64,000 nt of DNA from positions 49,036-113,035 of the forward strand of contig JAJISE010000001.1 in assembly GCA_022848865.1 (NCBI GenBank), read 5' to 3'. Made by a program: the position numbers and the translations under genes. Positions 47,217 through 62,147 of the stretch are shown here, piece after piece; within the stretch, counting starts at the first letter, position 1; each line of letters opens with the position of its first letter. The notes under the pieces were generated by a model. The model did no database searches. It had not been told where the DNA came from and worked only from the letters and a program-made list of their open reading frames with translations. The stretch is from Thermoplasmatota archaeon. GTDB taxonomy: Archaea > Thermoplasmatota > Thermoplasmata > RBG-16-68-12 > JAGMCJ01.

Positions 47217-47228
47217 GTCACGCCCCCA

Positions 47229-47456: not shown

Positions 47457-47597
47457 CTACTCTCCAACGTGAGAAACCTGACTGGTCTCGTTGCAATACC
47501 CAGTACTGTATTTAAGGCTTTCGCAAATCTTTATTGGTAGAAGACGGACTGCGGACCTGTAAGCTCTCTCGACCCAAGACAATCCTTTTAATATGGT

Positions 47598-47819: not shown

Positions 47820-48787
47820 AGGTCTGCCTGGGCGGGACCTTCGACAGGATTCACAAGGGACACAAGGCTCTGCTCGCGGAGGCGTTCGAGATCGGCGACG
47901 AGGTTGTCATAGGCCTCACCTCGGACGAGATGGCGCGGTCTGAGAAGAGCTCCTCGGTGTCCCCATACGATGCAAGAAAGGCAGCGCTCAACAACTACCT
48001 CGCGGCCAGCGGACACTCCAACTTCGAGATCGTGAGCATCGATGACAGGTTCGGACCGGCGAAGACAGAGCCGATCGACGCGATAGTGGTCTCGAAGGAG
48101 ACGAAGGGGACCGCAGAGGAGCTCAATGCGGAGAGGATGAAGTCTGGACTCAGCCCCCTGAAGATCGTCGAGATAGGCATGGTCCTTGCCGACGACTGCG
48201 CTCCCGTGTCCTCGAGCAGGATAAGGCTCGGAGAGATGGACGAGGGCGGCAAGATGGTTCGGCCGCTAATCGTCAACGTCGGGTCGAAGAACAGGACGAA
48301 GATATGGGCGGTCAGGGATGTCTTCCTGAAGCTCTTCGGCAAGGTGGAGGTTCATGGTGTTCCCGTGTCCTCCGATGTACCCAAGCAGCCCGTTGACGAG
48401 GAGGCTATCCGGGGCGCCGTGAACCGCGCCCAGGCAAGCCTCGGGGATGCGGATTTCGGCGTCGGGATAGAATCGGGAGTCGTCTGGAACGAGGAGGCGG
48501 GTTCGCATCTCTGCGTCCAGTTCTGCGCGGTCGTGGACAAGCTTGGAGAGGTAACATTGGGGCACAGTGCGGGATTCACGCTGCCTGCCGAAGTTGCGGA
48601 GAAGATTCGGGCGGGAAGCGATCTCGCGGAGGCCCTGTCGGGTGTGGAAGGTGTCCGAACGGAGGAGAGCAAAGGTGCTGTTGGGTTCCTGTCCGGTAAT
48701 CTCATTTCCCGATCGAGTCTCACTGAGTCCGCAGTTCTGATGGCGATGATCCCGCGAATCCGCAGAGACCTCTACTTCCCAGTCTGA
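47654..48787 (+). CDS. Fusion ORF. The N-terminal part is phosphopantetheine adenylyltransferase (archaeal PPAT, cytidylyltransferase fold) and the C-terminal part is a YjjX/DUF84-type non-canonical purine NTP phosphatase.
   Basis: PPAT HxGH motif (GGTFDRIHKGH) and ...SSRIRLGE end. Without an intervening stop it runs into MVRPLIVNVGSKNRTKIWAVRDVFLKLFG...VHGVPVSSDVPKQPVDEEAIRGAV, which aligns with the E. coli YjjX N-terminus. The internal ATG at 48254 has an SD-like sequence. The true 5' start is uncertain because there is no canonical start near the PPAT N-terminus at about 47810. Confidence 0.65.
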   Translation: MRAGNSREGRLLFGGLRERSQEDVEEEEEPAPLAVCEQHRRTHTHSPPELGVALLKVCLGGTFDRIHKGHKALLAEAFEIGDEVVIGLTSDEMARSEKSSSVSPYDARKAALNNYLAASGHSNFEIVSIDDRFGPAKTEPIDAIVVSKETKGTAEELNAERMKSGLSPLKIVEIGMVLADDCAPVSSSRIRLGEMDEGGKMVRPLIVNVGSKNRTKIWAVRDVFLKLFGKVEVHGVPVSSDVPKQPVDEEAIRGAVNRAQASLGDADFGVGIESGVVWNEEAGSHLCVQFCAVVDKLGEVTLGHSAGFTLPAEVAEKIRAGSDLAEALSGVEGVRTEESKGAVGFLSGNLISRSSLTESAVLMAMIPRIRRDLYFPV

Positions 48788-48925
48788 GCGATCCTCGGAA
48801 TCTCCGACTTCTATTCTCTCTGCCCTTCGCGAGGGAGCGTTCTCCTTCCGAGGCAAACATGCGGGCGGGAGTTACTGCCCTGCTCAAGCACTCCGACGGA
48901 CTACTGAAGGAATCGACGCAGCAGA

Positions 48926-49123
48926 GCATAGGATTCCTATGGCTCGCGTATAGGATTCGTATAGGATCCCTATGGAAACTGTATAGGATTCATATGGGAT
49001 TTGTATGGAATTTGTATGCAATCGGTATGAGTATCTCCTGAGCATCCCCTGAGCATCCTATGGTCATCTCCTGCGAAAGGTATAGAAGAGCTATGGGAAG
49101 AGTATGGGGAGAATATGGAAGTG
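48926..49123. repeat. Eighteen tandem units of an 11-bp degenerate repeat, about 80 bp upstream of the gap start codon. The unit consensus is roughly G/C-TATAGGATTC or G/C-TATGG-RA-NN. Examples are gtataggattc repeated three times, ctatggaaact, atatgggattt and gtatggaattt.
   Basis: I laid the sequence out by hand. Consecutive 11-mers from 48926 to 49123 share a TATGG/TATAGG core at a fixed phase. The array also contains a direct duplicate (tcctgagcatc then ccctgagcatc). The period is not a multiple of 3 and no frame is conserved, so the array is noncoding. Confidence 0.8.
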
Positions 49124-49203
49124 GAGAGGAAGAACTTGACCGTTCAGGGCAGTCCTTCGCAAACCTTTATACTCTTTCCATCGATTGCGGAGCGGGGGTT
49201 ATA

Positions 49204-50214
49204 TTGAGCGTCAAAGTGGCGATCAATGGCTATGGGACGATAGGTAAGAGGATAGCCGACGCGGTAGCTTCGCAGGATGATATGGAAGTGATCGGTGTAA
49301 CGAAGACCAGACCGACCTACGAGGCGAAGATGGCAATCTTGCGGGGATACCCGTTCTACGCAGCATCCGAGGAATCTGTAGGACGCTTCAAGGACAAGGG
49401 AATTGAGGTCCAGGGGACCCTTGACGACCTGCTCGAACAGGCTGACATAGTCGTGGACGGGACCCCCAAGAACATGGGATACAAGGAGACCTACGAGAAG
49501 GCGGGCGTGAAGGCCATATGGCAGGGAGGCGAGAAGCACGAGTTGACCGGGCTTTCGTTCAACGCCCAGGCGAACTACGACGAGGCGCTCGGCGCCGACT
49601 ACGTCAGAGTCGTTTCATGCAACACGACCGGACTCATAAGGACGCTGTACCCCCTTCACAAGGAGTTCGGAGTGGAGTATGTCATGGCCGTGATGATCAG
49701 GCGGGGAGCAGATCCCTGGGATACGAAGAGGGGCCCCATAAATGCGGTGGAGCCCGTGCTCAAGGTTCCGTCACACCACGGTCCCGATGTGCAGACGGTC
49801 ATGCCCTACCTGAACATCCAGACGACCGCGGTGAAGGTCCCGACGACCATAATGCATCTCCATTCCCTCATGGTCAGGCTGAAGCGGGAGGTCAGCAGAG
49901 ATGATGTCCTCAAAGTGTGGGAGAACTCCCCGAGGATCCTCTTCGTTGAGGGGGAGGAGGGAATCAAATCCACGGCCCAGATCATGGAGATGGCCAAGGA
50001 CATGTGCAGGAACAGGGCGGACCTGTACGAGATAGCCGTGTGGCGGGACGGCACCCATGTGGTGGGCGATTCGCTCTACTACTACCAGGCGATCCATCAG
50101 GAGTCCGATGTCGTGCCCGAGAACGTGGACGCGATCAGGGCCATGATGGAAATCGAGAAGGACAACATGAAGAGCATGAAGAAGACGGACCTCGCATTGG
50201 GCATAGAGTGCTAG
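49204..50214 (+). CDS. gap: Glyceraldehyde-3-phosphate dehydrogenase, archaeal type.
   Basis: [19 protein letters not shown] is the archaeal GAPDH N-terminus and the active-site SCNTTGL is present. The start is TTG at 49204, giving [11 protein letters not shown], 5 nt after GGGGG. The track ORF start at 49060 lies inside the repeat array and is spurious. Confidence 0.9.
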
Positions 50215-50367
50215 ATTCGATGAGCCAGATGGTGAGGTTCAAAACCTTACATTGTCAGAAACTTGACAGAAGCCCCGCAGGGAAGCGCCGCGAAAATGGG
50301 GGTAGCGAGAACGGAGCGCCACCGATTTTGAGGGTAGAGGCGAAGCCGAGCACCGCGAGTTTCGAGG

Positions 50368-51438
50368 TCAGTTGGAGCGCCGTACGGCTTCGAGGATTTC
50401 CGAGATACGATCTGCGATATCATCCTCTACACCAGACTGCAAGAGTGAATACATCGCTTCTCGTATCTTTCCGTCAAGCCCATAGTACTTGACGTTGCCC
50501 AGCGAAGCATGCGGCTGAAGAGCTAGATATGTTTCATGGTCACTCTCAAGAACCCAGAAGACAAGGAGTTCCACGGCGTCTGGATGTCCTGCGCCTACGA
50601 GGACGTTGAACGCCCTCTTCGCAATCTGGCGCGAAGGCATCGACTTCCCGATTTCCCTGATCTTCTCCATCCATCGAGACACCACATTCTTCTCAATGGT
50701 TCTCCCTCTGTAACCAAGAATACGGAGGAATTCAAGAGCGCCCTCGATTTCCTTCTCGGATTTGGAGTCCAACGTTTTCCTCACCAGTTCCGGGATTTCC
50801 TCGTGCTCGAATATGATGTACGTGTGCACCATGGACTCGAGGTCCATCAACGCCTCAAGACGAAGCGACGGATTCTCGCTCTTGAGCATCTTCACAATCA
50901 AAGAGGCTTCTGAATCCGGGATTTGCTTCCTTGGAGGCTCTCTCTGTGCCGGCGTTATTTCTGGCCTTTCTCCATGGAGCAATCCCTTCATTCTCAGACG
51001 CATGATTACACCAGCGCTATCAAGGTAGTCTGTCTTATCACCGATACGTATGGGGAACCGGAACTTGTCATCGCAGTGTGGCACGGTGCCCTCCGGTACT
51101 TCGAGAACAAGGAACTCCTTGTTTCCCCATGAAATCCGCTTGCTGTTGATAGCAACAGGTGGGCGGCAGTTCCCTGCCTGCTGAGAGATTCTGCTAGGGT
51201 CTCTCTCATCTATCTGGCATCCAATAGGATTCTTCTCATCGGTAAAACCGAAGACAATGTGACCTCCTTCGTGATTGGCCAAGGCGGCTATGTCCGTCGA
51301 CAATCCCCTAATCACCTCATCCGAAATCTCCCTCTTGAGTTCCACGTGAGAACTCTCGGCATCACGAACTAGCTCCTCAAGATCATCCAGCGTCTTAACC
51401 ATGTCATGTCCCTCCACATAGAACTTCCATCTACCCAA
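50368..51438 (-). CDS. AlbA_2 (Schlafen-like, putative DNA-binding) domain protein with C-terminal HEAT/PBS-lyase-like repeats.
   Basis: AlbA_2 consensus blocks are present (HVELKREISDEV, IAALANHEGGHIVFGFTDEKNPIG). The C-terminal helical repeats include GHPDAVELLVFWVLESDHETYLALQ. It lies within the lower-GC island. Confidence 0.55.
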   Translation of the reverse strand: MGRWKFYVEGHDMVKTLDDLEELVRDAESSHVELKREISDEVIRGLSTDIAALANHEGGHIVFGFTDEKNPIGCQIDERDPSRISQQAGNCRPPVAINSKRISWGNKEFLVLEVPEGTVPHCDDKFRFPIRIGDKTDYLDSAGVIMRLRMKGLLHGERPEITPAQREPPRKQIPDSEASLIVKMLKSENPSLRLEALMDLESMVHTYIIFEHEEIPELVRKTLDSKSEKEIEGALEFLRILGYRGRTIEKNVVSRWMEKIREIGKSMPSRQIAKRAFNVLVGAGHPDAVELLVFWVLESDHETYLALQPHASLGNVKYYGLDGKIREAMYSLLQSGVEDDIADRISEILEAVRRSN

Positions 51439-51679
51439 AGAAATCGGATAGCTCCCTTTCTATCCTTTTCCAAACAGGAATACTACAGTCAATTGTCACG
51501 TGCACGGTGTTCTCACGGACTTCATAAGTCCCTGATAGAAGACCAGTTGGATGAGAGAAATTCCCCCTCCGAGCGTTGCCAGACAGTGACCATCCATTCT
51601 CTTCGGCTCGCTGGTTCACGATTCTGAATAGGTCTTCTGGAGTGTATTTCAAGTCAATATCGTATGTTCTTCTCGCCAT
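51431..51679 (-). CDS. Hypothetical 82-aa protein that overlaps the start of the AlbA_2 gene by 8 nt (same operon).
   Basis: Compact ORF with ATG/stop overlap coupling. I recognise no family. Confidence 0.35.
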   Translation of the reverse strand: MARRTYDIDLKYTPEDLFRIVNQRAEENGWSLSGNARRGNFSHPTGLLSGTYEVRENTVHVTIDCSIPVWKRIERELSDFFG

Positions 51680-52450
51680 TGTCAGAGATATGGCATTGGT
51701 TCCTTATCTATGTGTCCCACGACGTGCGACGACGACTATCCAGCGTGTCCGTTGTACCGGACCAGGAGGCTGTAATCTGGAAAGGGAATCTCCCCGTAGG
51801 TGAACGGCTGGAATCGTCCACTGCCTTCAATGATCCCCTCTCCTACGTTGAGGGCGTCGATGGTTGGCTGATACACTCTGGACCATCGGGGCCTGCGAGC
51901 TGCGGGCAGGTAGGTGAAATACTGGAGCTTCTCGACCAGTCGGTTGTCAATGTCGCTGATGTTGTGGGTCGTTACACAGACGGAGATTGAGCGCCTTCCG
52001 ATAGTTTTCTTATTTGACTCCGAGCTCTATCATCTTCTTGACCAGAAGTCTCTGAACATCTTCATCTTGGAGTATCGTTGAGAGCTTTCCATCCAGGCTC
52101 TCCATTTCGTCCTGCAGTGCTGCCGCAGTCTGAATATCGAGTATGGCCCCACACCCAGTGCAGAACCTACCTGTAGCTTTGGACAAGGCTCAACACGAAC
52201 TCAGGGAGGACCTCCAACCCATACCTCTCACAAACGAGCATAGAAGAATACTTCCCCTGAAGAAGGGATCATCGTACTGCGTAGCTGTATCACAAAGTCG
52301 TCTTACGGTCGCTAGGGATGAGGAATGAATACAGCATTTGGTGTCATATGGAAATGCGTACAGGTTTCTGATCTTGGGAATGATTGTGCAGATGGTGGCG
52401 GAGTCTGCTACCCAGGAGAGGTTTCCCACTTCGAGCTTTCCGGAAGGTCC

Positions 52451-53968
52451 TCAGGGTCCCGCTTCATCTGGCCCTTTCCTTCTATTCACAATCAGCAGTG
52501 CAAGCATCACCACGACAATCCCAACTGGAAGACCTACTGCGATCCACATCCAATCTTGAGAACCCTCCTTCGGCAGAGGACCTCTTTCGAGCACTATCTC
52601 TCCAATATCAATCGTCGGTGTGCCTTCCGATACAGAGAATATCATTGTCTCATGGCCCACATATCCCTCTCTGGATACAAGCACCGTGTAGCTGCCGAAA
52701 GGAACATCGAAAAACTCAAAAACACCATTTGGATCGGCGGTCTCAGCATCCACTATGTTGCCAGTGCCCACATCCTTCAGTTGGACGACTGCGCCTTCCA
52801 ACGGATTCCCTTCCTTGTCCTGAACCGTCCCTGCTATCGTGCCTGTTGTCGTTAGTTCGGCTTCCGTCGTCCAGGTCCATGCATAAGGAGTAGTTGCCAA
52901 TGGATTGCCGTTCACATCGTCGGCTCCTGACACAGTGAATGTGTATGTGATGGAGAATGCAAAGTCATCGCGCGTCCCTGTTATCTTGGTGTCTCCAGCA
53001 TTCCATGTCCACGTCCAACCTCCGACATATGGGTCGATTGTGAAGTCGAAGCTTGTAGTATCCATCGCCTCGCTGAACCTAACAACGACATCTTGGGTGA
53101 TTTGCACATTTGAATCGGAGCTTGCTGGTGTCGTGGAAAGAATCGATGGTGGCGTGACATCGCCCGACGGAGCAGCAACAGCAATTGTATGCAAGACATC
53201 TGCTAACGTGTTAGCAGCTCTATTCAAAGATGCACCCGCACTGTCTTTGAACGCAGGATCTAACCAGTCATAACTACTGTCCATCCAAGTGCAGCTTTTG
53301 ATATCGGCACCATCCCCGAATGTTGTACTATAGGCAACATCAAGTGCGGCATCGTAAGCATCTATCGAAAAAAGAGCCCCATCGAAAGCAAGATAGGGAT
53401 CGAACATGCTCGACATATAGCTCGTCGTCCGATCTCTAACGTAGTTCTCATAATCGCTATGGTGCGTCTCCGCACCCCAATCAGTGCTCGAGCCCATAAC
53501 GTGCCCGAAAACAGCTAGGTCGACTATGTAGTGGCTCATAACACCTGCGTATTTGGCTGCCAGGGCATCGTTCCCACTATTGAGATGGTCGATGACATCC
53601 TCGTATGCTTGCTGGGCTCTTGTTGCAGAAATACCATCCTGCAGATTACCGGACGAATAGTAGTAGACATGGTGGTTGAAAGAGTCACCGATGCCGTCGG
53701 GCGCTCCACCGTTGTCCGGTAGCTCAGTACCGTAGAGATAGTCTTGGAGGTTGCTAAGGATGTATTGCTTCTCATTGCTCGGAAGCCAGTCCAAAGCATG
53801 CTCAGCTATCCAGTCGTGTGTGCCGTAATCAGGATTCGAGGGGTCGGCGCTGTATCCGCCATTGGACCACGCGACGGTTTGTGATGCTGCGAGCAATATT
53901 GGGAGCATGCCTGCAAGCATGATTGCTGTTATGATGTAGACCTTAGTCCTCCTGAGATTCTCCTCCAT
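52451..53968 (-). CDS. Secreted, membrane-anchored protein with a zinc-dependent phospholipase C-like domain, followed by an Ig-like domain, a carboxypeptidase-regulatory-like domain and a C-terminal TM anchor.
   Basis: The signal peptide begins at the internal ATG 53968 (MEENLRRTKVYIITAIMLAGMLPILLAA). PLC-like blocks HDWIAEHAL and SHYIVDLAVFGHV compare with Bacillus cereus PLC HLWIVNRAI and LHYLGDVNQPMHA. The CarboxypepD_reg block is GTIAGTVQDKEGNPLEGAVVQLKD...GSYTVLVSREGY. A TM segment plus NRRKG closes the protein. Confidence 0.6.
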   Translation of the reverse strand: MEENLRRTKVYIITAIMLAGMLPILLAASQTVAWSNGGYSADPSNPDYGTHDWIAEHALDWLPSNEKQYILSNLQDYLYGTELPDNGGAPDGIGDSFNHHVYYYSSGNLQDGISATRAQQAYEDVIDHLNSGNDALAAKYAGVMSHYIVDLAVFGHVMGSSTDWGAETHHSDYENYVRDRTTSYMSSMFDPYLAFDGALFSIDAYDAALDVAYSTTFGDGADIKSCTWMDSSYDWLDPAFKDSAGASLNRAANTLADVLHTIAVAAPSGDVTPPSILSTTPASSDSNVQITQDVVVRFSEAMDTTSFDFTIDPYVGGWTWTWNAGDTKITGTRDDFAFSITYTFTVSGADDVNGNPLATTPYAWTWTTEAELTTTGTIAGTVQDKEGNPLEGAVVQLKDVGTGNIVDAETADPNGVFEFFDVPFGSYTVLVSREGYVGHETMIFSVSEGTPTIDIGEIVLERGPLPKEGSQDWMWIAVGLPVGIVVVMLALLIVNRRKGPDEAGP

Positions 53969-54428
53969 TCCGCCGTTTCCCCCGAATGGCTGAGTGTTGA
54001 ATCCGTTGCGCCGATAAAAGTGTTTCCCAGAAGGCATTTCAGAATCACTTCTCGGGAGCCATTTCAGAGGGAACAGTTTGCCATCGTAACGTCGCTGTTC
54101 ATATCGAAGGAAATCACTTCTCGTCTGAAGGTAGGCTCTTGGAGGCTTTCTCGTGGATTCTGAGCCACTTTCACTTTGGGATGAGCGGAAGCTGTCAAAA
54201 GAGAACCACTGCCAGAGAGCAGTCTGTCTGCCTCTGTGTGCATTTCCTGACTCTCCTTCGCTAGAGTGCATTGGGACGGTCCTCTCAAACCGTTTCCCAT
54301 CCCGAGAGGGATATGCAAATAGGATGATATGATTATTTTCTGAGCATATGTGATGGAAAGTGTCTAATAGCAGGTATGATATAAAGCTCAGCAAAGCATA
54401 TAGTCTGATAATCCATGCTTAGCATATC

Positions 54429-54656
54429 TTGGTATCAGACAAGTCTGCTTTCGGGGATGATGAAGTGGAAAAGAAGATTCTGGAGGCAATTCGCAATAGT
54501 CCAAGGGGAACCTATATCGAAGAGCTGGCGAGGGAACTCAAGTTGAATAGAGCGACTATCAAGGATCGGGTAATCAGATTGGAAGCTCAGGGAAAGATAG
54601 AGGCCGAGAAGAAAGGAGCTACCAAGATGCTCTACTACAAAGAGGACGGGAACTGA
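54429..54656 (+). CDS. Small winged-helix DNA-binding protein, a possible controller for the adjacent R-M genes.
   Basis: The 75-aa protein has wHTH-like ILEAIRNSPRGTYIEELARELKLNRATIKDRVIRLEAQGKI. It lies immediately upstream of the methyltransferase. Confidence 0.45.
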   Translation: MVSDKSAFGDDEVEKKILEAIRNSPRGTYIEELARELKLNRATIKDRVIRLEAQGKIEAEKKGATKMLYYKEDGN

Positions 54657-54689
54657 GTTCCAGTGGAAATGACGGGGACGGTGTCTTAG

Positions 54690-55490
54690 TTGGCCGGCGA
54701 AGTGATTTTGGGCGATGCCCTGGAAGGCATGGAGAGACTGGACAAAGAGACCTTCGACTGCGTCTATGCAGATCCAGACTACAATGTGGGAGTGAACTAC
54801 AATGGCAAGAGGTACAAGAGATCTTTTGAGGAATACATCGAATGGTGCTCTGAGTGGTCAAGGGAAGCCCACAGGCTACTCAAACCCACCGGTAATTTCT
54901 TTGTGGTGAACTACCCAAGGAACAATGCCTATCTTTGGGCAAGCACTCTGGACGAATTGTACCACGATGTGCAGGAATATGTGTGGGTCTATAACACCAA
55001 TGTGGGGCATTCACCGAAGAGATTCACTACAGCTCATAGGTCAGTTCTCCACTGTCGAAAGACCAATGACAACAACTGGTTCAAGGATCAAGTGGCTCAA
55101 CCGTACAAGAATCCCACGGACAAACGCATAAGAAGGAACATCGCCAACGGATCTAAGGGAAGAATGCCGTATTCTTGGCTCTATTACAACCTCGTGAAGA
55201 ATGTCTCAAGGGAAAAGACAAATCACGTATGTCAAATCCCACAGAAGCTTTCGGAACTGCTATTCAAGGCCTCCATGAAAAAGGGTGACAAGGTCCTGGT
55301 GATGTTCGGGGGCTCGGGTAGTGAAGTCTTGGTGGCAACTCGTCTTGGGCTGGAATACACGACCTTCGAAATAGACCCCAAGTATCACAAGCTCATTCTC
55401 AAGCGAATCAAGAGAGTAGAGACGGCGGTCAGAGAGGGAGAGTTGAAGCCCCTAACATATTATACTGAACCGCTCTCACAAACTCAATAG
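54690..55490 (+). CDS. DNA methyltransferase (beta-class N4-cytosine/N6-adenine).
   Basis: Motif IV variant DPDY (VYADPDYNVGVNY) sits near the N-terminus and motif I FGGSGS near the C-terminus. This is the beta-class order. Confidence 0.75.
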   Translation: MAGEVILGDALEGMERLDKETFDCVYADPDYNVGVNYNGKRYKRSFEEYIEWCSEWSREAHRLLKPTGNFFVVNYPRNNAYLWASTLDELYHDVQEYVWVYNTNVGHSPKRFTTAHRSVLHCRKTNDNNWFKDQVAQPYKNPTDKRIRRNIANGSKGRMPYSWLYYNLVKNVSREKTNHVCQIPQKLSELLFKASMKKGDKVLVMFGGSGSEVLVATRLGLEYTTFEIDPKYHKLILKRIKRVETAVREGELKPLTYYTEPLSQTQ

Positions 55491-56247
55491 AATTGAAGTC
55501 CAGAGAGTTCTTGAACCTATACTCATGAAGCCTTACATAGCTCTGCTTCTTCGACTTAACCATGTTAGCGTAGATGTATCTGAGGCTGAACTTCGGTGGG
55601 ATGACTTTCTCCCTCTGGAACTTCTCGAAATACTTCATCGCTGTGAATAGCTGTCTGATCTCGAAGTTCGTCCTTGTCCCTCTCTTCACTTCTATTGGAG
55701 CGATAACGTCTTTGCCCTCCACAAATCCATCGATCTCCAATTGAAGTTGGTCTGGGTAGAAATCGTACTTGCCTATCTTGAAGTGAAATGAGAACTTCGA
55801 GCGTCTGGAATTGTGGATACGCAAGTCAGCGTCTCTCCGTCCGCATAGGAAATCGTGGAGTATCCTCTCGTTGTAGAGTGTCGAGAATGCCGAAGCCTCA
55901 CTCGCTCCAATCTCGTCCAACATGCTACCCCTCAACTTCCAGGGTTTGACTTCGTCCACATCCTCCAAGTAGTGATAACCGGTACCGCTGACGAAGGCAT
56001 GGTTTCCCCTTCCGAGATGGATGATAAAATAGCCCTCATCTTTCAAGGCTTCGGGCAACCTCTCATAGGTGTCAAACTTCGTCGCATCGAACTGATTGAC
56101 AAAGGCATACTTGACACAAATCTCCCTCACTTGGGGCGTGTTGAAATTGATGACATCGAGTCTTTCATCTTCGGGTTTCAGTCTTGTGAATAGCTCCGTA
56201 ATGATTCGCCGTTTCTTACCCTCTTTCTTTGCCATCTTTTCAGACAA
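55429..56247 (-). CDS. Putative type II restriction endonuclease, convergent with the methyltransferase and overlapping it by about 60 bp.
   Basis: A PD-(D/E)xK-like block is present (IDGFVEGKDVIAPIEVKRG). The call rests on R-M gene context. There is no family-level similarity that I can verify. Confidence 0.4.
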   Translation of the reverse strand: MSEKMAKKEGKKRRIITELFTRLKPEDERLDVINFNTPQVREICVKYAFVNQFDATKFDTYERLPEALKDEGYFIIHLGRGNHAFVSGTGYHYLEDVDEVKPWKLRGSMLDEIGASEASAFSTLYNERILHDFLCGRRDADLRIHNSRRSKFSFHFKIGKYDFYPDQLQLEIDGFVEGKDVIAPIEVKRGTRTNFEIRQLFTAMKYFEKFQREKVIPPKFSLRYIYANMVKSKKQSYVRLHEYRFKNSLDFNSIEFVRAVQYNMLGASTLPL

Positions 56248-56474
56248 AGAGGCAGTGGACTATTAACCTTTGGTGAGTGAGTCAATGTCCGACAGCTGCC
56301 ATCCAGTATTCCGAGGAATATCCTAACTAACGGGAAGGGACCCCGTCCGACTTCTGTCAGCCAGCATTTCGAAGGAGTGTATCACTTAACGGCACGGAAT
56401 CTCTGAACCGAAACCAGCAAGTATGTCTAGTAGGTTAGGAAGGTCGATTCCTGCGAAAGGAAGGAGTGTAGACC

Positions 56475-56865
56475 ATGCCTCGGAATCACCTGGAGCAACT
56501 GGTTCATGAATGGTATGAGTACAATGGATACTCTGTGCGGAGTAACGTCAAAGTGGGCCCACGTCCCCATGGCGGGTACGAAGGCGAATTGGACATTGTT
56601 GCTTTCAACCCAGAGTCAGGAGAGATTGTCCACGTTTGAATCTTCTAACGACGCTCTTTCTTGGATCAAGAGAGAGATGCGGTATGAGAGAAAGTTCAGC
56701 CTTGGAAAGAGATTCATTCCTGGACTATTTCCAAAGAGCCAGTCAAGACTAGATCAGATAGCTCTCCTCGTCTATGCAAGCAAGGATGCCCAAGGAAAGG
56801 AGTTGGGTGGAGGGTATGCACCATCGGTGGTTTTCTGGATGAGATATGTGCCAAACTCCTTGTGA
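56475..56865 (+). pseudogene. Frameshifted small PD-(D/E)xK nuclease-fold gene.
   Basis: A 54-codon ORF follows the strong SD AAGGAG and reads ...GELDIVAFNPESGEIVHV before a stop at 56637-56639. The protein continues in the adjacent frame (ESSNDALSWIKREMRYERKF...) to 56865. A 1-nt indel near 56636 is implied. Confidence 0.45.
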
Positions 56866-57242
56866 AGCCCCCCCGAAGTGAGGCAGTTCCTGAGAACTAC
56901 CCGTTGTTGAGGACCATTCAGTTTGTGTTGCACTTCACAGAGTTGGGAAGATCTAATCCTGATCGAAGCCTGAAAAATGAGAACCAAGTCGAAAAGCCCC
57001 GTTTCGAACCCATTTGGGCCCGAATCCCCGTGAGCCCGTACCTCTCTTGCTGGCTGAAAATCAATTCGCGGTTTCTTCAATCTTGCTATCTGATCCTACG
57101 GACTTCTTCTCGACAACATCCCTTACCCTCTCCCCAAGGGATGCCTTCGCGTTGGCTACTGCGGGCGAAAGGATTATAGAACCCGAGCCATATGTGAAGC
57201 TCCAGAGGGGAGGAATGTGAAAGTGTCCTGGAGGGCTCAATC

Positions 57243-57773
57243 ATGGTGAAGTGCAAGAAGTGCAACAGAGAGATTCCGGTCGCGTCGAACTTCTGTCCAC
57301 GCTGCGGGTCCAAGCTCGGATTGGAGGCGAGGATCAAGAAGTGGAACCCGACGCAGAGGAAGGCGACGAACCTTGCGAAGACGCTCCAAGGACTGCGCCT
57401 GCAGAGGAAGGGAATCAAGAACGAGGCGGATGTCGAGAAGCAGATCATCTCGCTCCTTGCCGATGAGAGGGGCTTCCGGCACCGGTGGGGAGAGAGATCC
57501 GACGTCAAGCCCGTGTACGCCCTGGGATTCAAGCACGGTCCGGACGCTGAGGTCAGGGGGATAGCCCTCGAGGTGAAGTACGCCACGGGCTCGAGACACA
57601 TCCAGCAGGCGATCGGACAGGGGTTCCTGTACCACACCCAATATCCCTACGTCATGCTGTTCCTAGTCGATGGGACGAAGTCGAAGAAGATCAAGAAGAG
57701 CCTGGATTCCAAGGACGCCCAGCGGTTCGTGAGGAAGCTCAAGGAGATGGGGCTGTATCTGATCGTGAAGTGA
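57243..57773 (+). CDS. Zinc-ribbon plus PD-(D/E)xK (Hjc-like) nuclease-fold protein.
   Basis: The N-terminal ribbon is CKKCNREIPVASNFCPRCG. The C-terminal block is GFKHGPDAEVRGIALEVKYA (PD...EVK). Confidence 0.45.
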   Translation: MVKCKKCNREIPVASNFCPRCGSKLGLEARIKKWNPTQRKATNLAKTLQGLRLQRKGIKNEADVEKQIISLLADERGFRHRWGERSDVKPVYALGFKHGPDAEVRGIALEVKYATGSRHIQQAIGQGFLYHTQYPYVMLFLVDGTKSKKIKKSLDSKDAQRFVRKLKEMGLYLIVK

Positions 57774-58192
57774 GGGAGATGAAGAAGAAGGTTCTACTGG
57801 CGGCCAGCATCACCGTGGCACTCATCGCCGGTGGTGCTGGGGCATACTACGTGAGCGAGCTACTCGCAGACGAGACCTCGACAATCATCTTCGAGTATGA
57901 CGGAACGGTAGGTGGATCTGGAACGTTTCTGGGCGAGTTTCAGGCATACAGGGATATGGAGATATCCTGGAATTCGACGCCGCACATAGAGGTCCGAGTC
58001 CGATGGGTCTCAGATGGTGAGACAGTCTGGTGGGGAAGCGGAAGAGACAACACGGATCCCCGTGCAGCCAACAATACCATTCAGATAAACCACGCGGATG
58101 AAGGACGCCTTCTCGAGGTCTGGACGCGTCAATATGGTCTTGAAGAGGGAGAACGGTTTAGCGTGCATCTCGTAGTCCGGGCCATCGGATGA
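57770..58192 (+). CDS. Hypothetical membrane-anchored/secreted protein coupled to the previous gene by an ATGA overlap.
   Basis: The N-terminal hydrophobic anchor is KKKVLLAASITVALIAGGAGAYYV. No family is recognised. Confidence 0.35.
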   Translation: MREMKKKVLLAASITVALIAGGAGAYYVSELLADETSTIIFEYDGTVGGSGTFLGEFQAYRDMEISWNSTPHIEVRVRWVSDGETVWWGSGRDNTDPRAANNTIQINHADEGRLLEVWTRQYGLEEGERFSVHLVVRAIG

Positions 58193-58492
58193 GCTGGAAG
58201 TGATTATAAGATTCCCCAAGGCTGAATGTCAACTGCTCAGAACCTCGCTCAGCAGCTTGTTGCTAGAGGCGAGTGTCAGTTTTGTGTTGCACGTTGCCGG
58301 AGAGAAGGCGAACTCGACCTCCGTGATCGTGTAGTCCCCTGAGAGGCCATACTGGGCGTTGTCGAGACTCACGAACTCGCCCACGGTGAATATGCCCCGG
58401 GGGATTCCGGATCGCCACAGCCACGGCGAAAACGGGCCCTCGGTGCAACGCCACGTATGTCTGGGCCCGCCTGAGCAGGACGTCCCTGTTCG

Positions 58493-58924
58493 TTGTCGGG
58501 AGCGAACACTGGCGACCTCTGCGACAACTGCAACAAGAAGGTCGTGGAGCTCTGCGAGATGCTGAGGGGGGGAATTTTCTGCCGTTCCGAGAAGCGAATA
58601 TGGGTCATCGCCAACGAAGTGATGCTGGACGCTGTCCCCGTGGTCCGAGAGAAGGTTGCTGAGGGTGCGGATTTCAAGCTCGTAATCGACCAGACCTTCA
58701 AGGCTCCTCCGTCGTTCGAGCCCTCCTTACCTGAGCTTTGGCGGCAGGTGCCAAGAATCCCCGTTGCCACGGCGGTTACGGAGAAGGAAGGGATGGTCTG
58801 CTTCCTCGATCGCGAGCTAATGGTGGATTACACCGTCGCGTTCACGTCTGATGAGCCACCGTTCTTGAAGCGGTGCGAGAACCTCGTTGACAACCTTTGG
58901 AAAGAAGGCGTCCCGCTTCAATGA
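58493..58924 (+). CDS. Hypothetical protein.
   Basis: A 143-aa ORF in the island. I recognise no family. Confidence 0.3.
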   Translation: MSGANTGDLCDNCNKKVVELCEMLRGGIFCRSEKRIWVIANEVMLDAVPVVREKVAEGADFKLVIDQTFKAPPSFEPSLPELWRQVPRIPVATAVTEKEGMVCFLDRELMVDYTVAFTSDEPPFLKRCENLVDNLWKEGVPLQ

Positions 58925-59054
58925 TAGTACTCTCGAAACCGCTCGGCTAGAGGTCACGGGCGAACATGAATCCTTCATTCATAGGAGTGATGTTCCCCTG
59001 CAGAAGCGGGGAATAGTAAGGCATTATTAGGCAGATACGCAGATAGCCCAAGAG

Positions 59055-59534
59055 GTGCAGTCCATGAACGAAGAGAAATCCACGGAGGAAGAGGGCCACA
59101 GGAAGTTCGCGGTTGACGCTTTCAACCTGGTCTGGGATCTTCTCGACAAGGAAGAGAGAACGGAGGGAGAGGATGACAAGATGGTTCATGCAGTTCATAC
59201 GTCTCGCTTCCACTGGGGCGAGATAGGAACGCCTCTGGAGTTCGAGAGAGGCGAGTGGCAGATCTCCCGGGTCTACTCGGTTCTGAACAAGCCAGAGTCA
59301 GCACTTCACCACGCAAAGAAGTGCTTGAGCATCTGCAAGGAGAGCGACATCGGAGACTTCGACATCGCCTTCGCGTATGAAGCCACGGCGAGAGCCAACG
59401 CCGTTGCGGGTGAGCAGGCCGAGGCTGAGAAGTACATCAAGTTGGGGAAGGAGGCTGGAGAGCAGATCGCCGAGAAGGGCAACAAGGACTACTTCTTCAG
59501 CGAACTGAAGACGATCCCTGGCTATCAGGAATGA
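59055..59534 (+). CDS. Hypothetical protein.
   Basis: A 159-aa ORF with protein-like composition. I recognise no family. Confidence 0.35.
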   Translation: MQSMNEEKSTEEEGHRKFAVDAFNLVWDLLDKEERTEGEDDKMVHAVHTSRFHWGEIGTPLEFERGEWQISRVYSVLNKPESALHHAKKCLSICKESDIGDFDIAFAYEATARANAVAGEQAEAEKYIKLGKEAGEQIAEKGNKDYFFSELKTIPGYQE

Positions 59535-59566
59535 CGCTCGTCAGGGAATCATCGGCAAGGGCCGCA

Positions 59567-59959
59567 CTACCTGGGCAACTCGAATAGCTGTATCCAGTTG
59601 CCATCAGGATCCTCGATGTATGCCCAGTTTGCGTCTGGCTCCTCGGCCACGTCCGAGACAGGCTCATGACCCTTCTTCTTGAGGTACTTGAGCGCCTTGT
59701 CCAGATTTCGGACTTCGAAGGTGAGATAGTCCAGCTCGTCCCCCTTCTTGAACGGCCCAGCCACCGGACTTCTGTCCGAATACCAATTGAGCGTCAGGAC
59801 ATGCCCGGTGCTTTCGCTCTGCAGGCCAGCGGTCTCGCCCTTGGTGAACGGAATCTCCGAGCGGCCCAAGAACTTCATACCCAGGACCTCCGTGTAGAAA
59901 CGGATCGAACGGTCGAGGTCCTGAACGCGAATTCCCGTGAACGAGAACATGAACTTCAT
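59567..59959 (-). CDS. VOC-family protein (glyoxalase/bleomycin resistance/dioxygenase fold).
   Basis: A betaalphabetabetabeta module with GIRVQDLDRSIRFYTEVLGM and an acidic C-terminal metal site (YIEDPDGNWIQL). Confidence 0.75.
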   Translation of the reverse strand: MKFMFSFTGIRVQDLDRSIRFYTEVLGMKFLGRSEIPFTKGETAGLQSESTGHVLTLNWYSDRSPVAGPFKKGDELDYLTFEVRNLDKALKYLKKKGHEPVSDVAEEPDANWAYIEDPDGNWIQLFELPR

Positions 59960-60117
59960 GGCCGACCGAATGGCTATGGATGATTAAGTCCTAACGATGG
60001 AACGGGAACCTTGTCCCGCCTCGCGATTGGCGATAATCGTCATTCCCATGCTTCAATCGGCCGTCTTTCTCAAATAACCTTTTAATAAGGTCACGGATTC
60101 ACACACGGGGGTAGGAC

Positions 60118-61296
60118 ATGGAAGAAGTTGTACTGGCAAGTGCAGTTCGGACAGCCGTCGGTAAGTTCGGCGGGACGCTGAAGGATATCAATGCGCCTCA
60201 ACTTGGCGGGTATGCAATCGCAGAGTCCATCAAGCGGGCAGGAATCGAGGGCAAGGACATCCAGGAAGTGATAATGGGCAACGTGGTCTCCGCGGGTCTC
60301 GGTCAGAATCCAGCAAGGAGGGCTATGATATTTGCGGGCCTTCCGTACGAGATTGGCGCCTTCACGATCAACAAGGTCTGCGGCTCGGGACTCAAGGCGG
60401 TGATGATCGCGGCGGACGCGATCAAGTCGGGGAGCTATGGCATCATCGTGGCCGGCGGAATGGAGAACATGAATCAATGCCCGTATCTGCTGACAAAAGC
60501 GAGGTACGGTTATCGCCTTTTCCACGGAGAGCTCGTCGACGCGATGGTCCACGACGGACTCTGGGACATCCACAACGACTTCCACATGGGATTGACAGGC
60601 GAGATAGTGGCCGAGAGGTTCAACATCACGCGCGAAGAAATGGACACGCTCGCATATGAGAGTCACTTGAAGGCCGCCAAAGCAACCGAGGAGGGCAGAT
60701 TCAAGGACGAGATTCTCCCGCTTGAGATTCCACAGAGGAAGGGGGACCCGATCACATTCGATAAGGACGAGGGCGTTCGTCCCAATACAACACGTGAGAG
60801 GCTCGCCAAGCTCAAGCCAGCGTTCAAGAAAGATGGGATGATTACGGCAGGAAACGCATCACAGATCAGCGACGGCGCATCAGCCCTTGTCGTCATGGCG
60901 AAGAGCGAGGCTGAGAAGAGAGGCGTCGAGCCTCTCGCGAAAGTTGTCGCATACAACACGAGCGGCGTGGAACCAAAGCATGTCATGTCCGCACCGATTC
61001 CCTCTGTGAAGGCACTGCTCAAGGACAATGGCTTCATAATTGATGACATCGACATCTTCGAGCACAATGAGGCATTCGCGTCCGCGAGCGTGGCCGTGAG
61101 GAGGGAGATAGGAGTTCCTGACGAGAAGTTCAATGTCAATGGCGGTGCCGTCGCTCTCGGACATCCGATCGGGTGCAGTGGTGCGCGGGTCCTCACGACA
61201 CTTCTCTACGCGATGAAGGACAGAAATGCGGGAAGGGGACTGGCCACCCTGTGCCTCGGAGGCGGGAACGCGGTCAGCATGATTGTGGAGATGTGA
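60118..61296 (+). CDS. Acetyl-CoA C-acetyltransferase (thiolase II, bacterial type).
   Basis: Thiolase signatures are present ([11 protein letters not shown] and [20 protein letters not shown]). The length is 392 aa. Confidence 0.9.
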
Positions 61297-61298
61297 TC

Positions 61299-62147
61299 AT
61301 GGAAATCAAGCGGATTGGCGTCCTCGGTGCCGGCACCATGGGGAACGGAATCGCCCAAGTAGCCGCGCAGAGCGGCCACGAGGTTGTCATGCGGGACATC
61401 GAGCAGAGGTTCATCGACGGCGGGATGGAGAGCATCAGGAAGAACCTCTCTAGGGGTGTGAAGAAGGGCAGAATCACCGAAGAGCAGATGGAGACAACTC
61501 TGTCCAGAATCAAGCCGACGTTGGATATGGGGGACCTGAGCGGGTCAGACCTGGTCATCGAGGCGGTCATCGAAGACGCGGAACTGAAGAAGAGCGCGTT
61601 CAGGGAGATTGACGAACTCTGTGGGGATCATGTCATCATCGCAACGAACACCTCGAGCATATCAATCACTGATCTCGCATCGGCGATGGAGAGGCCTGAG
61701 AAGTTCATCGGAATGCACTTCATGAACCCTGTGCCTCTTATGAAGCTCGTGGAGGTCATAAGGGGGCTCCAGACAAGCGATGAGACAACGAGTGTGATAT
61801 TGGACCTTGCGGAGAAGATGGGAAAGACGCCCGTGGAAGTGAACGACTACCCAGGTTTCATCTCGAACAGGCTGCTCATGCCGATGATAAACGAGGCCGC
61901 CTTCTGTTTGATGGAGGGAGTGGCGACGAGGGAGAGCATAGACACAGTGATGAAGCTGGGCATGAATCACCCAATGGGGCCGCTCGAACTCGCTGATTTG
62001 ATCGGCTTGGATGTGTGTCTCTTCATCATGGAAGTCCTGTACAACGACTTCAACGACTCGAAGTACAGGCCCTGCCCGCTCCTGAAGAAGATGGTGAGGG
62101 CTGGATATCTGGGCAGAAAAACGAAGAGAGGCTTCTACGATTACTGA
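61299..62147 (+). CDS. hbd: 3-hydroxyacyl-CoA (3-hydroxybutyryl-CoA) dehydrogenase.
   Basis: The NAD-binding motif is [16 protein letters not shown]. The catalytic [15 protein letters not shown] block is also present. The start is the ATG at 61299, 2 nt after the thiolase stop. The track ORF starts 42 codons earlier. Confidence 0.85.

What the first reader, a model, noticed from the sequence alone, without database searches (positions are those of the whole stretch)
50215..59566. Lower-GC island carrying an R-M system, an AlbA_2/Schlafen-like protein, a Zn-PLC-like surface protein and PD-(D/E)xK nuclease genes, one of them frameshifted
Between gap (which ends at 50214) and the VOC/thiolase genes the base composition drops visibly. 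Long stretches are 40-50% GC, against roughly 58-60% in the flanks. Gene content switches from core housekeeping functions to defence-like and accessory functions. These are an AlbA_2 domain protein with HEAT repeats plus a coupled small ORF, a membrane-anchored zinc phospholipase C-like protein, a compact wHTH-MTase-REase module, a frameshifted small nuclease, and a Zn-ribbon/PD-(D/E)xK protein translationally coupled (ATGA overlap) to a membrane protein. This looks like a horizontally acquired defence/accessory island. The AlbA_2-HEAT pair and the Zn-ribbon-nuclease/membrane pair are candidate uncharacterised defence modules. I found no integrase or flanking tRNA.
Basis: partly seen in the sequence, partly recalled or inferred. 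Interest (0 to 1): 0.6.

Follow-up and report, generated by a model that had tools for sequence, protein, structure and literature searches.

The report
Strain-variable archaeal defence island
Just after the gap gene of an uncultured Thermoplasmata archaeon lies a 9-kb patchwork of swappable defence and accessory genes and broken mobile-element genes; it is a typical, decaying defence island and not a new kind of system.

Summary
GC falls from 56.1 ± 1.6% to 47–51% and tetranucleotide usage shifts (z up to 5.6), but only over about 50.4–57.2 kb. The 57.2–59.6 kb part has host-like composition.

- an AlbA_2/Schlafen domain with a C-terminal α-solenoid
- a Zn-PLC-like surface protein
- a wHTH–MTase–REase type II R-M module
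- a small nuclease-like gene broken by +1 and −4 indels (intact in another strain)
- a Zn-ribbon protein with invariant E…PD…ExK…QxxxY motifs

New findings:
- A 58-aa integrase tail and a P-loop ATPase remnant lie upstream of the AlbA_2 gene.
- An ArsR/FilR1-like regulator is 5′-truncated.
- Five related lineages carry gap–SpoU-like–truA instead, with homology ending at the gap stop codon.
- Close strains with the same flanks carry other cassettes: a TIR-like gene, a BrxP-like gene, an EcoRII-C R-M and an ABC transporter.

The two proposed two-gene modules are not conserved. The AlbA_2 protein keeps the Ex4ExK motif and fits the recently described single-gene prokaryotic Schlafen defences.

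Verdict: a real, mosaic, strain-variable defence/accessory island, and a new member of a known kind.

The parts
50215..50269 (.). Left junction. These are the 55 bp after the gap stop codon, shared only with strain L058. Synteny with L001, L002, L003 and L024 ends at 50212/50213.
   Evidence: blastn; sequence
50368..51402 (-). 344-aa prokaryotic Schlafen (AlbA_2) protein. It has an intact Ex4ExK motif (E16, E21, K23) and D55, and is fused to a C-terminal armadillo/HEAT-like α-solenoid.
   Evidence: Pfam. Nine-member family with invariant residues. AF2 pLDDT 85.5. Foldseek hits to 3lmm, SLFN12 and designed armadillo/alphaRep proteins. Profile hits to SLFN14, Slfn13 and CbCash.
51431..51679 (-). 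82-aa ORF upstream of AlbA_2. It is doubtful as a gene and is not a conserved partner.
   Evidence: No family hit. GC3 is 0.47. Absent beside AlbA_2 homologues. No gene is called there in L181 and this exact sequence is not in the protein collection.
51739..52026 (-). Start-less open frame that is a remnant of the C-terminal part of a roughly 309-aa protein with a P-loop (Walker A) motif. Part of it (51720-51865) is shared with L058 and L094.
   Evidence: tblastx. BLASTP 39% over 75 aa, E 7e-15. DNA alignment.
52013..52186 (-). Integrase remnant. Its 58 aa are 69% identical to the C-terminal tail (aa 275-332) of a Phage_integrase-family recombinase that sits directly upstream of the AlbA_2 homologue in L094. 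The catalytic domain is missing.
   Evidence: also present in L190
52451..53971 (-). 506-aa surface protein with an N-terminal signal/anchor, a Zn-dependent phospholipase C-like domain, Big_5 and CarboxypepD_reg domains, and a C-terminal TM anchor.
   Evidence: Pfam. A related copy in L190 (527-aa gene call, about 95% nt identity).
54096..54310 (.). Conserved, apparently non-coding segment on the left side of the R-M cassette slot. It is shared with L083 (85%) and L190.
54429..54656 (+). 75-aa winged-helix protein, the putative R-M controller.
   Evidence: Pfam HTH_24 6e-7; annotated as wHTH regulator in cluster members
54690..55490 (+). 266-aa β-class N6A/N4C DNA methyltransferase.
   Evidence: Pfam 3e-34 and PADLOC MTase_II 1e-106; PDB relatives M.RsrI, M.MboIIA and CcrM
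55429..56247 (-). 272-aa type II restriction endonuclease candidate (DUF6996 + DUF6997). It is convergent with the MTase, with a 62-nt overlap at the 3' ends.
   Evidence: Pfam and PADLOC REase_II 1e-10; no PDB sequence relative
56475..56966 (+). Pseudogene of a 164-aa nuclease-like protein with an ELD...EPS motif. It carries a +1 at about 56635, a -4 at about 56808, and has lost its stop codon.
   Evidence: Intact copy at L083 12320-12814. The same broken 119-aa ORF is called in the independent assembly L181. The family has at least 201 clusters.
57243..57773 (+). 176-aa protein with an N-terminal Zn ribbon and a PD-(D/E)xK, RecB/Cas4-like motif set: E61, P100-D101, E110-x-K112, Q126-xxx-Y130.
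   Evidence: Pfam Zn ribbon. Invariant residues in the 4-sequence and 34-sequence alignments. Exhaustive search found 85 relatives.
57770..58192 (+). 140-aa ORF with an N-terminal membrane anchor. It has no family and is not a conserved partner of the Zn-ribbon gene.
   Evidence: the contigs of two other assemblies break inside it
58493..58924 (+). 5'-truncated ArsR/FilR1-like regulator. Homology to the full-length genes begins at 58574-58587, so the wHTH domain has been lost.
   Evidence: L088 225-aa and L190 241-aa full-length versions
59055..59534 (+). 159-aa TPR-like protein. It is present in most strains (L083, L086, L087, L088, L190) but absent in L089 and L090, whose homology to the window ends at 59554-59562.

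Best explanation
Window 50215-59566 is a strain-variable genomic island in an uncultured Thermoplasmata archaeon. It was built by repeated cassette gain, replacement and decay at a synteny breakpoint just after gap.

The left 7 kb is compositionally foreign and holds three units:
(a) The decayed end of an integrative element: an integrase tail, an ATPase remnant and a cargo gene. The cargo encodes a prokaryotic Schlafen (AlbA_2) RNase fused to an armadillo/HEAT-like domain.
(b) A membrane-anchored Zn-PLC-like exoenzyme.
(c) A compact type II R-M cassette (small DNA-binding protein, β-class MTase, convergent REase) followed by an inactivated nuclease-like gene.

The right 2.4 kb has host-like composition. 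There, a 1.5-kb segment carrying a Zn-ribbon PD-(D/E)xK nuclease gene takes the place that a GNAT/ABC-transporter block occupies in L190, and the neighbouring regulator is truncated.

Inferred mechanisms:
- The R-M system methylates host DNA and cuts unmodified invading DNA.
- By analogy with characterised pSlfn proteins, the Schlafen protein is a single-gene sensor-effector. Its α-solenoid would sense a viral cue and release tRNA cleavage by the Ex4ExK site.
- The Zn-ribbon nuclease acts on nucleic acid, but its role is unknown.

Shown here: composition, gene identities, motifs, pseudogenisation and allele diversity. Inferred: all enzymatic activities and any anti-viral effect.
For: Composition: GC z down to -5.4 and tetranucleotide z up to 5.6 over about 50.5-57.5 kb.

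Left border: L001, L002, L003 and L024 (gap protein 98-86% identical) lose homology at 50212/50213. Like L101, they carry a SpoU-like methyltransferase next to gap. The four longer loci continue with truA and a protein of more than 2000 aa. None of these genes is in the 64-kb window.

The junction is real: the independent assembly L181 spans gap to the Zn-ribbon gene at 99.94% identity, and L058 shares 55 bp past gap.

Right border: eleven contigs encode an identical VOC protein. In the nine strain-distinct loci compared, homology to the window ends at 59554-59562, 59000 or 58587, or at the end of a short contig.

Alternative alleles:
- L058 replaces the AlbA_2 cassette with other genes and carries a TIR_2/ThsB-like gene further on.
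- L190 has a BrxP-like PAPS reductase (1e-51) left of the integrase tail, and a GNAT + ABC transporter block where the window has the Zn-ribbon gene.
- L083 has a different small-protein-MTase-EcoRII-C R-M system between the same conserved flanks.

Mobile-element remnants. Pseudogene. Truncated regulator.

Schlafen protein: the Ex4ExK residues are invariant. The profile aligns them to SLFN14 E206/E211/K213 and D55 to the GVDD aspartate. The motif is defined as catalytic in PMC13056530 and PMC13462974. Homologues sit beside MTases, Mrr and integrases.
Against: Apart from the R-M genes, no island protein hits a PADLOC model, so the 'defence' label for the other genes rests on context and homology. 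The Zn-PLC-like protein and the regulator are accessory genes, not defence genes. There are no att-like direct repeats, no tRNA target and no intact integrase, so the integration mechanism cannot be reconstructed. The SpoU-like/truA block of this genome was not located, so a larger rearrangement cannot be told apart from an insertion. The link across 57943-57967 is supported only by the window's own contig. The AF2 model of the Zn-ribbon protein is poor (pLDDT 47).
Confidence: 0.8

Rival explanations
1. The region is an assembly or binning artefact: a chimeric MAG contig that joins a core-genome segment ending at gap to unrelated DNA.
For: Synteny with four relatives ends exactly at the gap stop codon. 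Two other assemblies break their contigs at 57942/57968, next to a palindrome. In the L001 genome the VOC-thiolase block lies on a different contig from gap.
Against: L181, from another assembly, covers 40368-57942 at 99.94% and includes the gap-island junction. L058, a different strain, shares the first 55 bp after gap and the 51720-51865 segment. L081 and L082 cover 57968-64000. ORF 57770-58192 stays in frame across the only link that lacks independent support.
Confidence: 0.04
2. The region is one intact, currently mobile integrative element or provirus that inserted between gap and VOC.
For: There is an integrase-related sequence and an ATPase-related sequence next to cargo genes. The composition is foreign. 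AlbA_2 and Zn-ribbon homologues lie in integrase-containing loci in L094 and L097.
Against: Only the last 58 aa of the integrase remain and the catalytic domain is absent. No terminal direct repeats or tRNA were found. Sub-segments are exchanged independently in L058, L083 and L190. Relatives do not have gap next to VOC. AlbA_2 and Zn-ribbon relatives were not found on IMG/VR viral contigs.
Confidence: 0.08
3. The region is an ancestral, vertically inherited part of this lineage, and its lower GC merely reflects its gene functions (surface and regulatory proteins).
For: Another surface-protein gene with Big_5 and CarboxypepD_reg domains lies nearby in all strains (62141 to beyond 64000). Mildly lower GC also occurs at 41-42.5 kb. 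The right 2.4 kb has host composition.
Against: The content differs between strains that share 93-100% identical flanks. Five related lineages have a different gene next to gap. The region holds R-M genes, an integrase remnant and pseudogenes. No window outside the island falls below GC 0.517, against 0.474 inside.
Confidence: 0.05

Closest known systems
Defence islands / variable-region hotspots of prokaryotic genomes (Makarova et al. 2011, cited in PMC13056530)
   Same: Defence genes cluster with mobile-element remnants: R-M and Schlafen genes here, and TIR-like, BrxP-like and EcoRII-C genes in the alternative alleles. The composition is foreign. Strains sharing the same flanks carry different cassettes.
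   Different: The island is in an uncultured Thermoplasmata archaeon. It is mixed with non-defence cargo (a Zn-PLC-like exoenzyme, a regulator, and an ABC transporter in other strains). It sits at a synteny breakpoint, not between two genes that are adjacent elsewhere.
Prokaryotic Schlafen (pSlfn) single-gene defence proteins, e.g. RorSlfn5 (PMC13056530) and CRISPR-associated Cash (PMC13462974)
   Same: It has a PF04326 domain at the N-terminus, an invariant Ex4ExK motif, fusion to a variable C-terminal domain, and a neighbourhood of R-M genes. [quoted passage not shown]
   Different: The C-terminal domain is predicted to be an armadillo/HEAT-like α-solenoid. It is not among the frequent compositions that paper names (HisKinase, HisKinase-HTH, HTH, DUF5929, Ig-like, DUF262 or TBP-like), nor the Csx15 of Cash (PMC13462974). 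Only 9 clusters were found among 5.8 billion proteins. The host is archaeal and no activity has been tested.
Type II restriction-modification systems with a controller gene
   Same: A small DNA-binding protein gene precedes a β-class N6_N4 MTase, with a convergent REase gene. The whole cassette is exchangeable (L083 carries an EcoRII-C system in the same slot).
   Different: The small protein is a winged helix (HTH_24/AsnC-like), not the usual Xre-type C protein. The REase belongs to DUF6996/DUF6997 and has no solved relative by sequence. MTase motif IV reads DPDY, not DPPY (sequence).
RecB/Cas4-type PD-(D/E)xK nucleases
   Same: It has the ordered motif set E...PD...ExK...QxxxY, invariant over 34 sequences at about 25% identity.
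   Different: No Pfam, NCBIfam, PADLOC or PDB sequence match was found for the domain. It has an N-terminal Zn ribbon, and no Fe-S cysteine cluster is evident. The fold is not confirmed.
Zinc-dependent phospholipase C (PF00882; fold class shared with S1/P1 nucleases, from my own knowledge)
   Same: The Pfam domain scores above its cut-off (35.8 against 26.8 bits). His/Asp-rich segments are present. A Trp follows a likely signal cleavage site (TVA|WSNGG).
   Different: It is fused to Big_5 and CarboxypepD_reg domains and a C-terminal TM anchor. Its substrate, lipid or nucleic acid, is unknown.

Membership tests
Type II restriction-modification system | DNA methyltransferase with N6A/N4C catalytic domain | tested here: met
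   PF01555 at 3e-34; PADLOC MTase_II PDLC03337 at 1e-106; PDB relatives M.RsrI, M.MboIIA and CcrM
Type II restriction-modification system | Adjacent restriction endonuclease gene | tested here: met
   Convergent 272-aa gene with DUF6996/DUF6997 and PADLOC REase_II at 1e-10. The same trio is found in L181 and L190.
Type II restriction-modification system | Sequence-specific cleavage blocked by the cognate methylation | not testable with these tools
   Needs enzyme assays or methylome data.
Prokaryotic Schlafen (pSlfn) defence proteins | Slfn/AlbA_2 domain (PF04326) | tested here: met
   3.3e-17, 63.5 bits against a cut-off of 25.3. Profile hits to SLFN14, Slfn13, SLFN5, SLFN12 and CbCash.
Prokaryotic Schlafen (pSlfn) defence proteins | Catalytic Ex4(E/D)xK motif | tested here: met
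   E16-SSHV-E21-L-K23 is invariant in 9 of 9 family members and aligns to SLFN14 TESTHVEFK. The motif is defined in PMC13056530.
Prokaryotic Schlafen (pSlfn) defence proteins | Fusion to a separate putative sensor domain | tested here: met
   The AF2 model (pLDDT 85.5) shows residues 163-343 as all-α repeats. Foldseek matches designed armadillo and alphaRep proteins at E about 1e-4.
Prokaryotic Schlafen (pSlfn) defence proteins | Virus-triggered tRNA cleavage and protection | not testable with these tools
PD-(D/E)xK nuclease superfamily (Zn-ribbon protein 57243-57773) | Conserved (P)D...(D/E)xK catalytic motif | tested here: met
   D101, E110 and K112 are invariant, and H98 and P100 are at least 90% conserved, across 34 sequences. 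E61 (at least 90%), Q126 and Y130 are also conserved.
PD-(D/E)xK nuclease superfamily (Zn-ribbon protein 57243-57773) | αβββαβ restriction-endonuclease-like fold | tested here: inconclusive
   The AF2 model has pLDDT 46.8. There are no PDB profile hits. Single members give only weak hits to RE_NgoPII and DpnII-MboI.
Integrative mobile element / genomic island | Intact integrase | tested here: not met
   Only a 58-aa C-terminal tail remains. Two integrases taken from related loci (L094, L097) give no other match in the window (tblastn).
Integrative mobile element / genomic island | Flanking direct repeats (att) or a tRNA target | tested here: not met
   Only short repeats at chance level; no tRNA.
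Integrative mobile element / genomic island | Atypical composition and variable presence among close relatives | tested here: met
Known multi-gene defence systems in PADLOC (for AlbA_2, the Zn-ribbon protein, the 164-aa family, the 82-aa and 140-aa ORFs) | Match to a PADLOC model | tested here: not met
   No hits at E <= 0.01 (window proteins) or E <= 0.001 (164-aa family). Only the distantly related 421-aa AlbA_2 protein of L097 hits candidate PDC-S50.
Zinc-dependent phospholipase C | PF00882 domain above the gathering score | tested here: met
   35.8 bits against 26.8, residues 192-326 of the long ORF.
Zinc-dependent phospholipase C | Complete set of Zn ligands and lipid substrate | not tested
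   His/Asp-rich motifs were seen by eye only. No structure was modelled.

The most novel reading that the evidence does not exclude
The island and its alleles hold three unannotated nuclease-type genes that could each be a stand-alone immune gene not in current defence catalogues:
- An archaeal Schlafen RNase with an armadillo/HEAT-like sensor.
- A Zn-ribbon RecB-like nuclease. It recurs next to AlbA_2 genes and integrases: in L097 and in the window.
- A 164-aa 'ELD...EPS' protein family. It has at least 201 clusters, is 50-59% identical between this archaeon and diverse bacteria, has no Pfam model, and sits directly after type I R-M or near AbiEi genes. It is inactivated in the window.
Probability: 0.3. 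Interest if true: 0.55.

Novelty: new member of a known kind. Interest (0 to 1): 0.35.

Why it matters
It documents, allele by allele, how a defence hotspot turns over in an uncultured Thermoplasmata population. Cassettes are swapped between conserved anchor segments, and gene stubs are left behind. It places a Schlafen-type effector with an intact catalytic motif and an unusual α-solenoid domain in archaea. It also flags two conserved nuclease-like families that have no curated model as candidates for testing. None of this changes current concepts; its value is as a catalogue entry and a source of candidates.

Tried and rejected
- GNAT remnant. I first read window 56775-57050 (minus strand) as the 3' remnant of the 408-aa acetyltransferase of L083. 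This is rejected. The 164-aa gene lies on the other strand there. In L190 the GNAT gene is 317 aa and lies wholly beyond the homology break. The 408-aa call is therefore an over-extension, and the window has no GNAT sequence.
- Direct repeat CATTGTCAGA at 50250 and 51677, flanking the AlbA_2 cassette. A 10-nt seed is expected by chance in 12 kb, so it is not used as evidence.
- Structure of the Zn-ribbon protein. The AF2 model has pLDDT 46.8 and is unusable for fold search.
- PDB sequence/profile searches for the REase, the Zn-ribbon family and the 164-aa family found nothing meaningful.
- Viral-contig scans for AlbA_2 and Zn-ribbon relatives found none.
- The metagenome-contig scan with gap found no close relative; the best was 73%.
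- An exact look-up of the gap protein with a TTG→M start was not on record.
- The afdb50 fold library was unavailable.
- No supplementary tables are held for PMC13056530, so I could not check whether an α-solenoid fusion is among pSlfn1-55.

Full report
**Source and flanks.** The window comes from an uncultured Thermoplasmata archaeon. The gap product is an archaeal-type GAPDH. Its closest relatives are Thermoplasmata MAGs at 98%, 87%, 86% and 86% protein identity (L001, L002, L003, L024). Cluster look-ups give protein accessions MCJ25555xx on a 119,445-bp contig.

**Observation: composition.**
- In 2-kb windows outside the finding, GC is 0.561 ± 0.016, with a minimum of 0.517.
- Inside, it drops to 0.474-0.508 (z -3.3 to -5.4).
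- The tetranucleotide distance to the rest of the window rises to z 5.6 (raw profiles).
- The anomaly spans about 50.4-57.2 kb.
The Zn-ribbon gene has GC3 0.85, like gap at 0.80, whereas the AlbA_2, PLC, R-M and pseudogene ORFs have GC3 0.47-0.61.

**Observation: genes.** Every domain call was reproduced:
- AlbA_2 (PF04326)
- Zn_dep_PLPC + Big_5 + CarboxypepD_reg, with N- and C-terminal hydrophobic segments
- a 75-aa winged helix
- an N6_N4 MTase (PADLOC MTase_II, 1e-106)
- a convergent DUF6996/DUF6997 protein that hits a PADLOC type II REase model (1e-10)
- a Zn-ribbon protein

No tRNA or Rfam family is present in the window.

**Frameshifted gene.** Strain L083 encodes an intact 164-aa protein at the homologous place. 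The window copy is split over three frames. A three-way DNA alignment shows a +1 T at about 56635, a 4-nt deletion (GGAG) at about 56808 and a lost stop codon. L190 carries a different -1 in a C-run. The same 119-aa broken ORF is called in the independent assembly L181, so the lesions are reproducible.

The family is large and strikingly conserved:
- It has at least 201 clusters, and the listed members are 48-59% identical to the archaeal protein.
- Members occur in Sedimentisphaerales, Nitrospirae, Kangiella, Methylococcaceae, Chloroflexota and Burkholderiales.
- All are annotated as hypothetical and none has a Pfam domain.
- The invariant residues include E6, E11, W12, E14, E37-L-D39 and E54-P-S56. 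This is PD-(D/E)xK-like but non-canonical.
- Two contexts were examined. One lies directly after a type I R-M operon, inside an element with AlpA, DnaB-like and integrase genes. The other lies near AbiEi_2.

**Left border.**
- blastn homology to L001, L002, L003 and L024 runs for 2-9 kb upstream (limited by locus or contig ends) and stops at 50212/50213, the gap stop codon.
- All four loci continue with a minus-strand SpoU-like methyltransferase, then truA, then a protein of more than 2000 aa.
- A fifth, more distant lineage (L101) also has the SpoU-like gene next to gap.
- None of these genes occurs anywhere in the 64-kb window.
- The junction is not an artefact. L181 covers 40368-57942 at 99.94% identity.
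- L058 is 97.6% identical over gap. It shares the first 55 bp after gap, then carries a different 1.8-kb cassette, and then re-joins the window for 146 bp at 51720-51865. A TIR_2/ThsB-like gene follows.

**Right border.** Eleven contigs encode a VOC protein identical to the window's. Homology to the window ends at different points in different contigs:
- 59554-59562, the VOC 3' end, in L089 and L090. L089 continues with an ABC ATPase.
- 59000 in L083, L086 and L087.
- 58587 in L088.

However, gap is not adjacent to VOC in any relative. In the L001 genome the two blocks lie on different contigs. The locus is thus a synteny breakpoint that also holds variable cargo. An insertion longer than the window cannot be told apart from a rearrangement with the data at hand.

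**Mosaic structure.**
- L190 is colinear with the window at about 95% identity over 51994-57077 (integrase tail, PLC, R-M, nuclease-like gene) and over 58574-61365.
- Between these two blocks L190 carries 5.6 kb: a GNAT gene, two ABC-transporter genes, a 405-aa membrane protein and the 5' half of an ArsR/FilR1-like regulator.
- The window has 1.5 kb there instead, with the Zn-ribbon gene and a 140-aa ORF.
- The window's 143-aa ORF (58493-58924) is therefore a 5'-truncated regulator. The full-length forms are the partial ≥225-aa ORF in L088 (contig end) and the 241-aa gene in L190.
- Left of the integrase tail, L190 has a BrxP-like PAPS reductase (PADLOC 1e-51) and a 256-aa gene, not AlbA_2.
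- L083 keeps two anchor segments (window 54096-54305 and 56345-57049). Between them it carries a different trio: a 75-aa small protein that looks ribbon-helix-helix-like by eye, an MTase, and an EcoRII-C REase.
- At least four sub-regions therefore turn over independently.

**Mobile-element remnants.**
- The 58-aa ORF at 52013-52186 (minus strand) is 69% identical (E 1e-28) to the C-terminal tail of a Phage_integrase-family protein. In L094 that protein lies directly upstream of an AlbA_2 homologue.
- The catalytic domain is absent from the window copy.
- Immediately downstream, a start-less open frame (51739-52026) is 39% identical over 75 aa to the C-terminal part of a 309-aa protein with a Walker-A motif. 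That protein is encoded in L095, another locus that carries an AlbA_2 gene.
- L094 itself contains a second copy of the integrase tail fused to the same remnant, just before its AlbA_2 gene.
- This points to AlbA_2 having arrived as cargo of an integrase-bearing element that has since decayed.
- No att-like repeats were found.

**AlbA_2 protein.**
- Only nine clusters were found among 5.8 billion proteins, all 343-350 aa and 40-54% identical.
- In the four neighbourhoods examined, the neighbours are DNA methyltransferases, a fused MTase-NmeDI_C protein, Mrr and an integrase. The 82-aa ORF is never present.
- The AF2 model (pLDDT 85.5) has an N-terminal α/β domain and a C-terminal helical repeat.
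- Foldseek returns 3lmm and SLFN12 for the first domain, and designed armadillo and alphaRep (HEAT-like) proteins for the second.
- The family profile hits SLFN14 (2.7e-6), rat Slfn13 (entry 5yd0), SLFN5, SLFN12 and CbCash. It aligns E16-x4-E21-x-K23 to TESTHVEFK, and D55 to the GVDD aspartate.
- E16, E21 and K23 are invariant in the family.
- Ex4(E/D)xK is the catalytic motif of pSlfn defence proteins. 97% of these are fused to putative sensor domains and 70% lie within 10 kb of defence genes (PMC13056530).
- A separate study describes a cluster with unknown C-terminal domains that is associated with R-M systems (PMC13462974).
- The protein is therefore best filed as a pSlfn with an α-solenoid C-terminal domain. 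Its activity is inferred, not shown.

**Zn-ribbon protein.**
- Word-based search found four clusters. Exhaustive HMMER found 85 relatives at E ≤ 1e-3.
- In a 34-sequence alignment at about 25% identity, L72, D101, E110, K112, Q126 and Y130 are invariant, and M1, E61, H98, P100, A108, G125 and Y134 are at least 90% conserved.
- This is the E...PD...ExK...QxxxY pattern of RecB/Cas4-type nucleases. That assignment rests on my own knowledge of those families.
- No curated model or solved structure matches, and the AF2 model is poor.
- The downstream 140-aa ORF is not conserved. L097 and L098 lack it, and the neighbour in L099 is unrelated.
- In L097 the Zn-ribbon gene lies 340 bp from a 421-aa AlbA_2 gene, in an integrase-bearing locus next to purF.

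**Overall.** The finding is a real, ordinary defence/accessory island seen in an advanced state of turnover. It contains one recognisable system (type II R-M), one member of the newly characterised pSlfn class, two uncurated nuclease-like families (one of them inactivated here), an accessory exoenzyme, and several gene stubs.

Noticed in passing
window 48788-49160: A 373-bp intergenic insert lies just upstream of the gap promoter (AAACCTTTATA). It is present in the window and in L002 (about 92% identical, against about 86% overall for the surrounding aligned region). It is absent from L001, L003 and L024. It contains about 20 phased 11-nt tandem repeats (units ATAGGATTCGT, TGAGCATCCCC, GAAGAGTATGG).
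   Followed up: partly
window 54096-54310: A 215-bp segment with no credible ORF and no 3-periodic substitution pattern is conserved at 85% with L083 and about 95% with L190. It lies on the left side of the R-M cassette slot. It could be a recombination anchor, a regulatory region or a gene remnant.
   Followed up: partly
window 57942-57968: Two other assemblies (GCA_044240345.1 and GCA_036478905.1) end or start contigs here, inside ORF 57770-58192 and beside the palindrome GGATATGGAGATATCC. The 25-bp link is supported only by the window's own contig.
   Followed up: partly
L083 12320-12814; window 56475-56966: The 164-aa family behind the pseudogene is unusually well conserved. The listed members are 48-59% identical between this archaeon and many bacterial phyla, and the family has at least 201 clusters. 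It has no Pfam, NCBIfam or PADLOC model. In L182 it directly follows hsdMSR plus a YgjP-like gene, inside an integrase-bearing element.
   Followed up: partly
L097 3239-8531: In another Thermoplasmata MAG, a locus next to two purF-like genes reads integrase, 350-aa gene, 421-aa AlbA_2 protein (which hits PADLOC candidate PDC-S50), then a Zn-ribbon nuclease homologue. This is the same pair of gene families as in the window, brought close together.
   Followed up: partly
L094 1228-1537: Downstream of its intact integrase, L094 carries a second, partial copy of the integrase tail fused to the ATPase-remnant segment, just before AlbA_2. This looks like the scar of tandem or successive integrations.
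   Followed up: no
window about 41000-42500: This is a second, milder composition dip (GC 0.50-0.53, the highest tetranucleotide distance outside the island). It coincides with a stretch of about 350-530 bp (about 42030-42480) where alignments to L001, L002 and L003 are interrupted.
   Followed up: no
L001 10663-17229, L002 10688-17497, L003 12640-20922: Relatives encode a fast-evolving protein of more than 2000 aa (about 30-50% identity between lineages whose gap proteins are 85-98% identical) downstream of gap-SpoU-like-truA. This block is missing from the window.
   Followed up: no
window 54690-55490: Motif IV of the MTase reads DPDY, not the usual (D/N/S)PP(Y/F).
   Followed up: no
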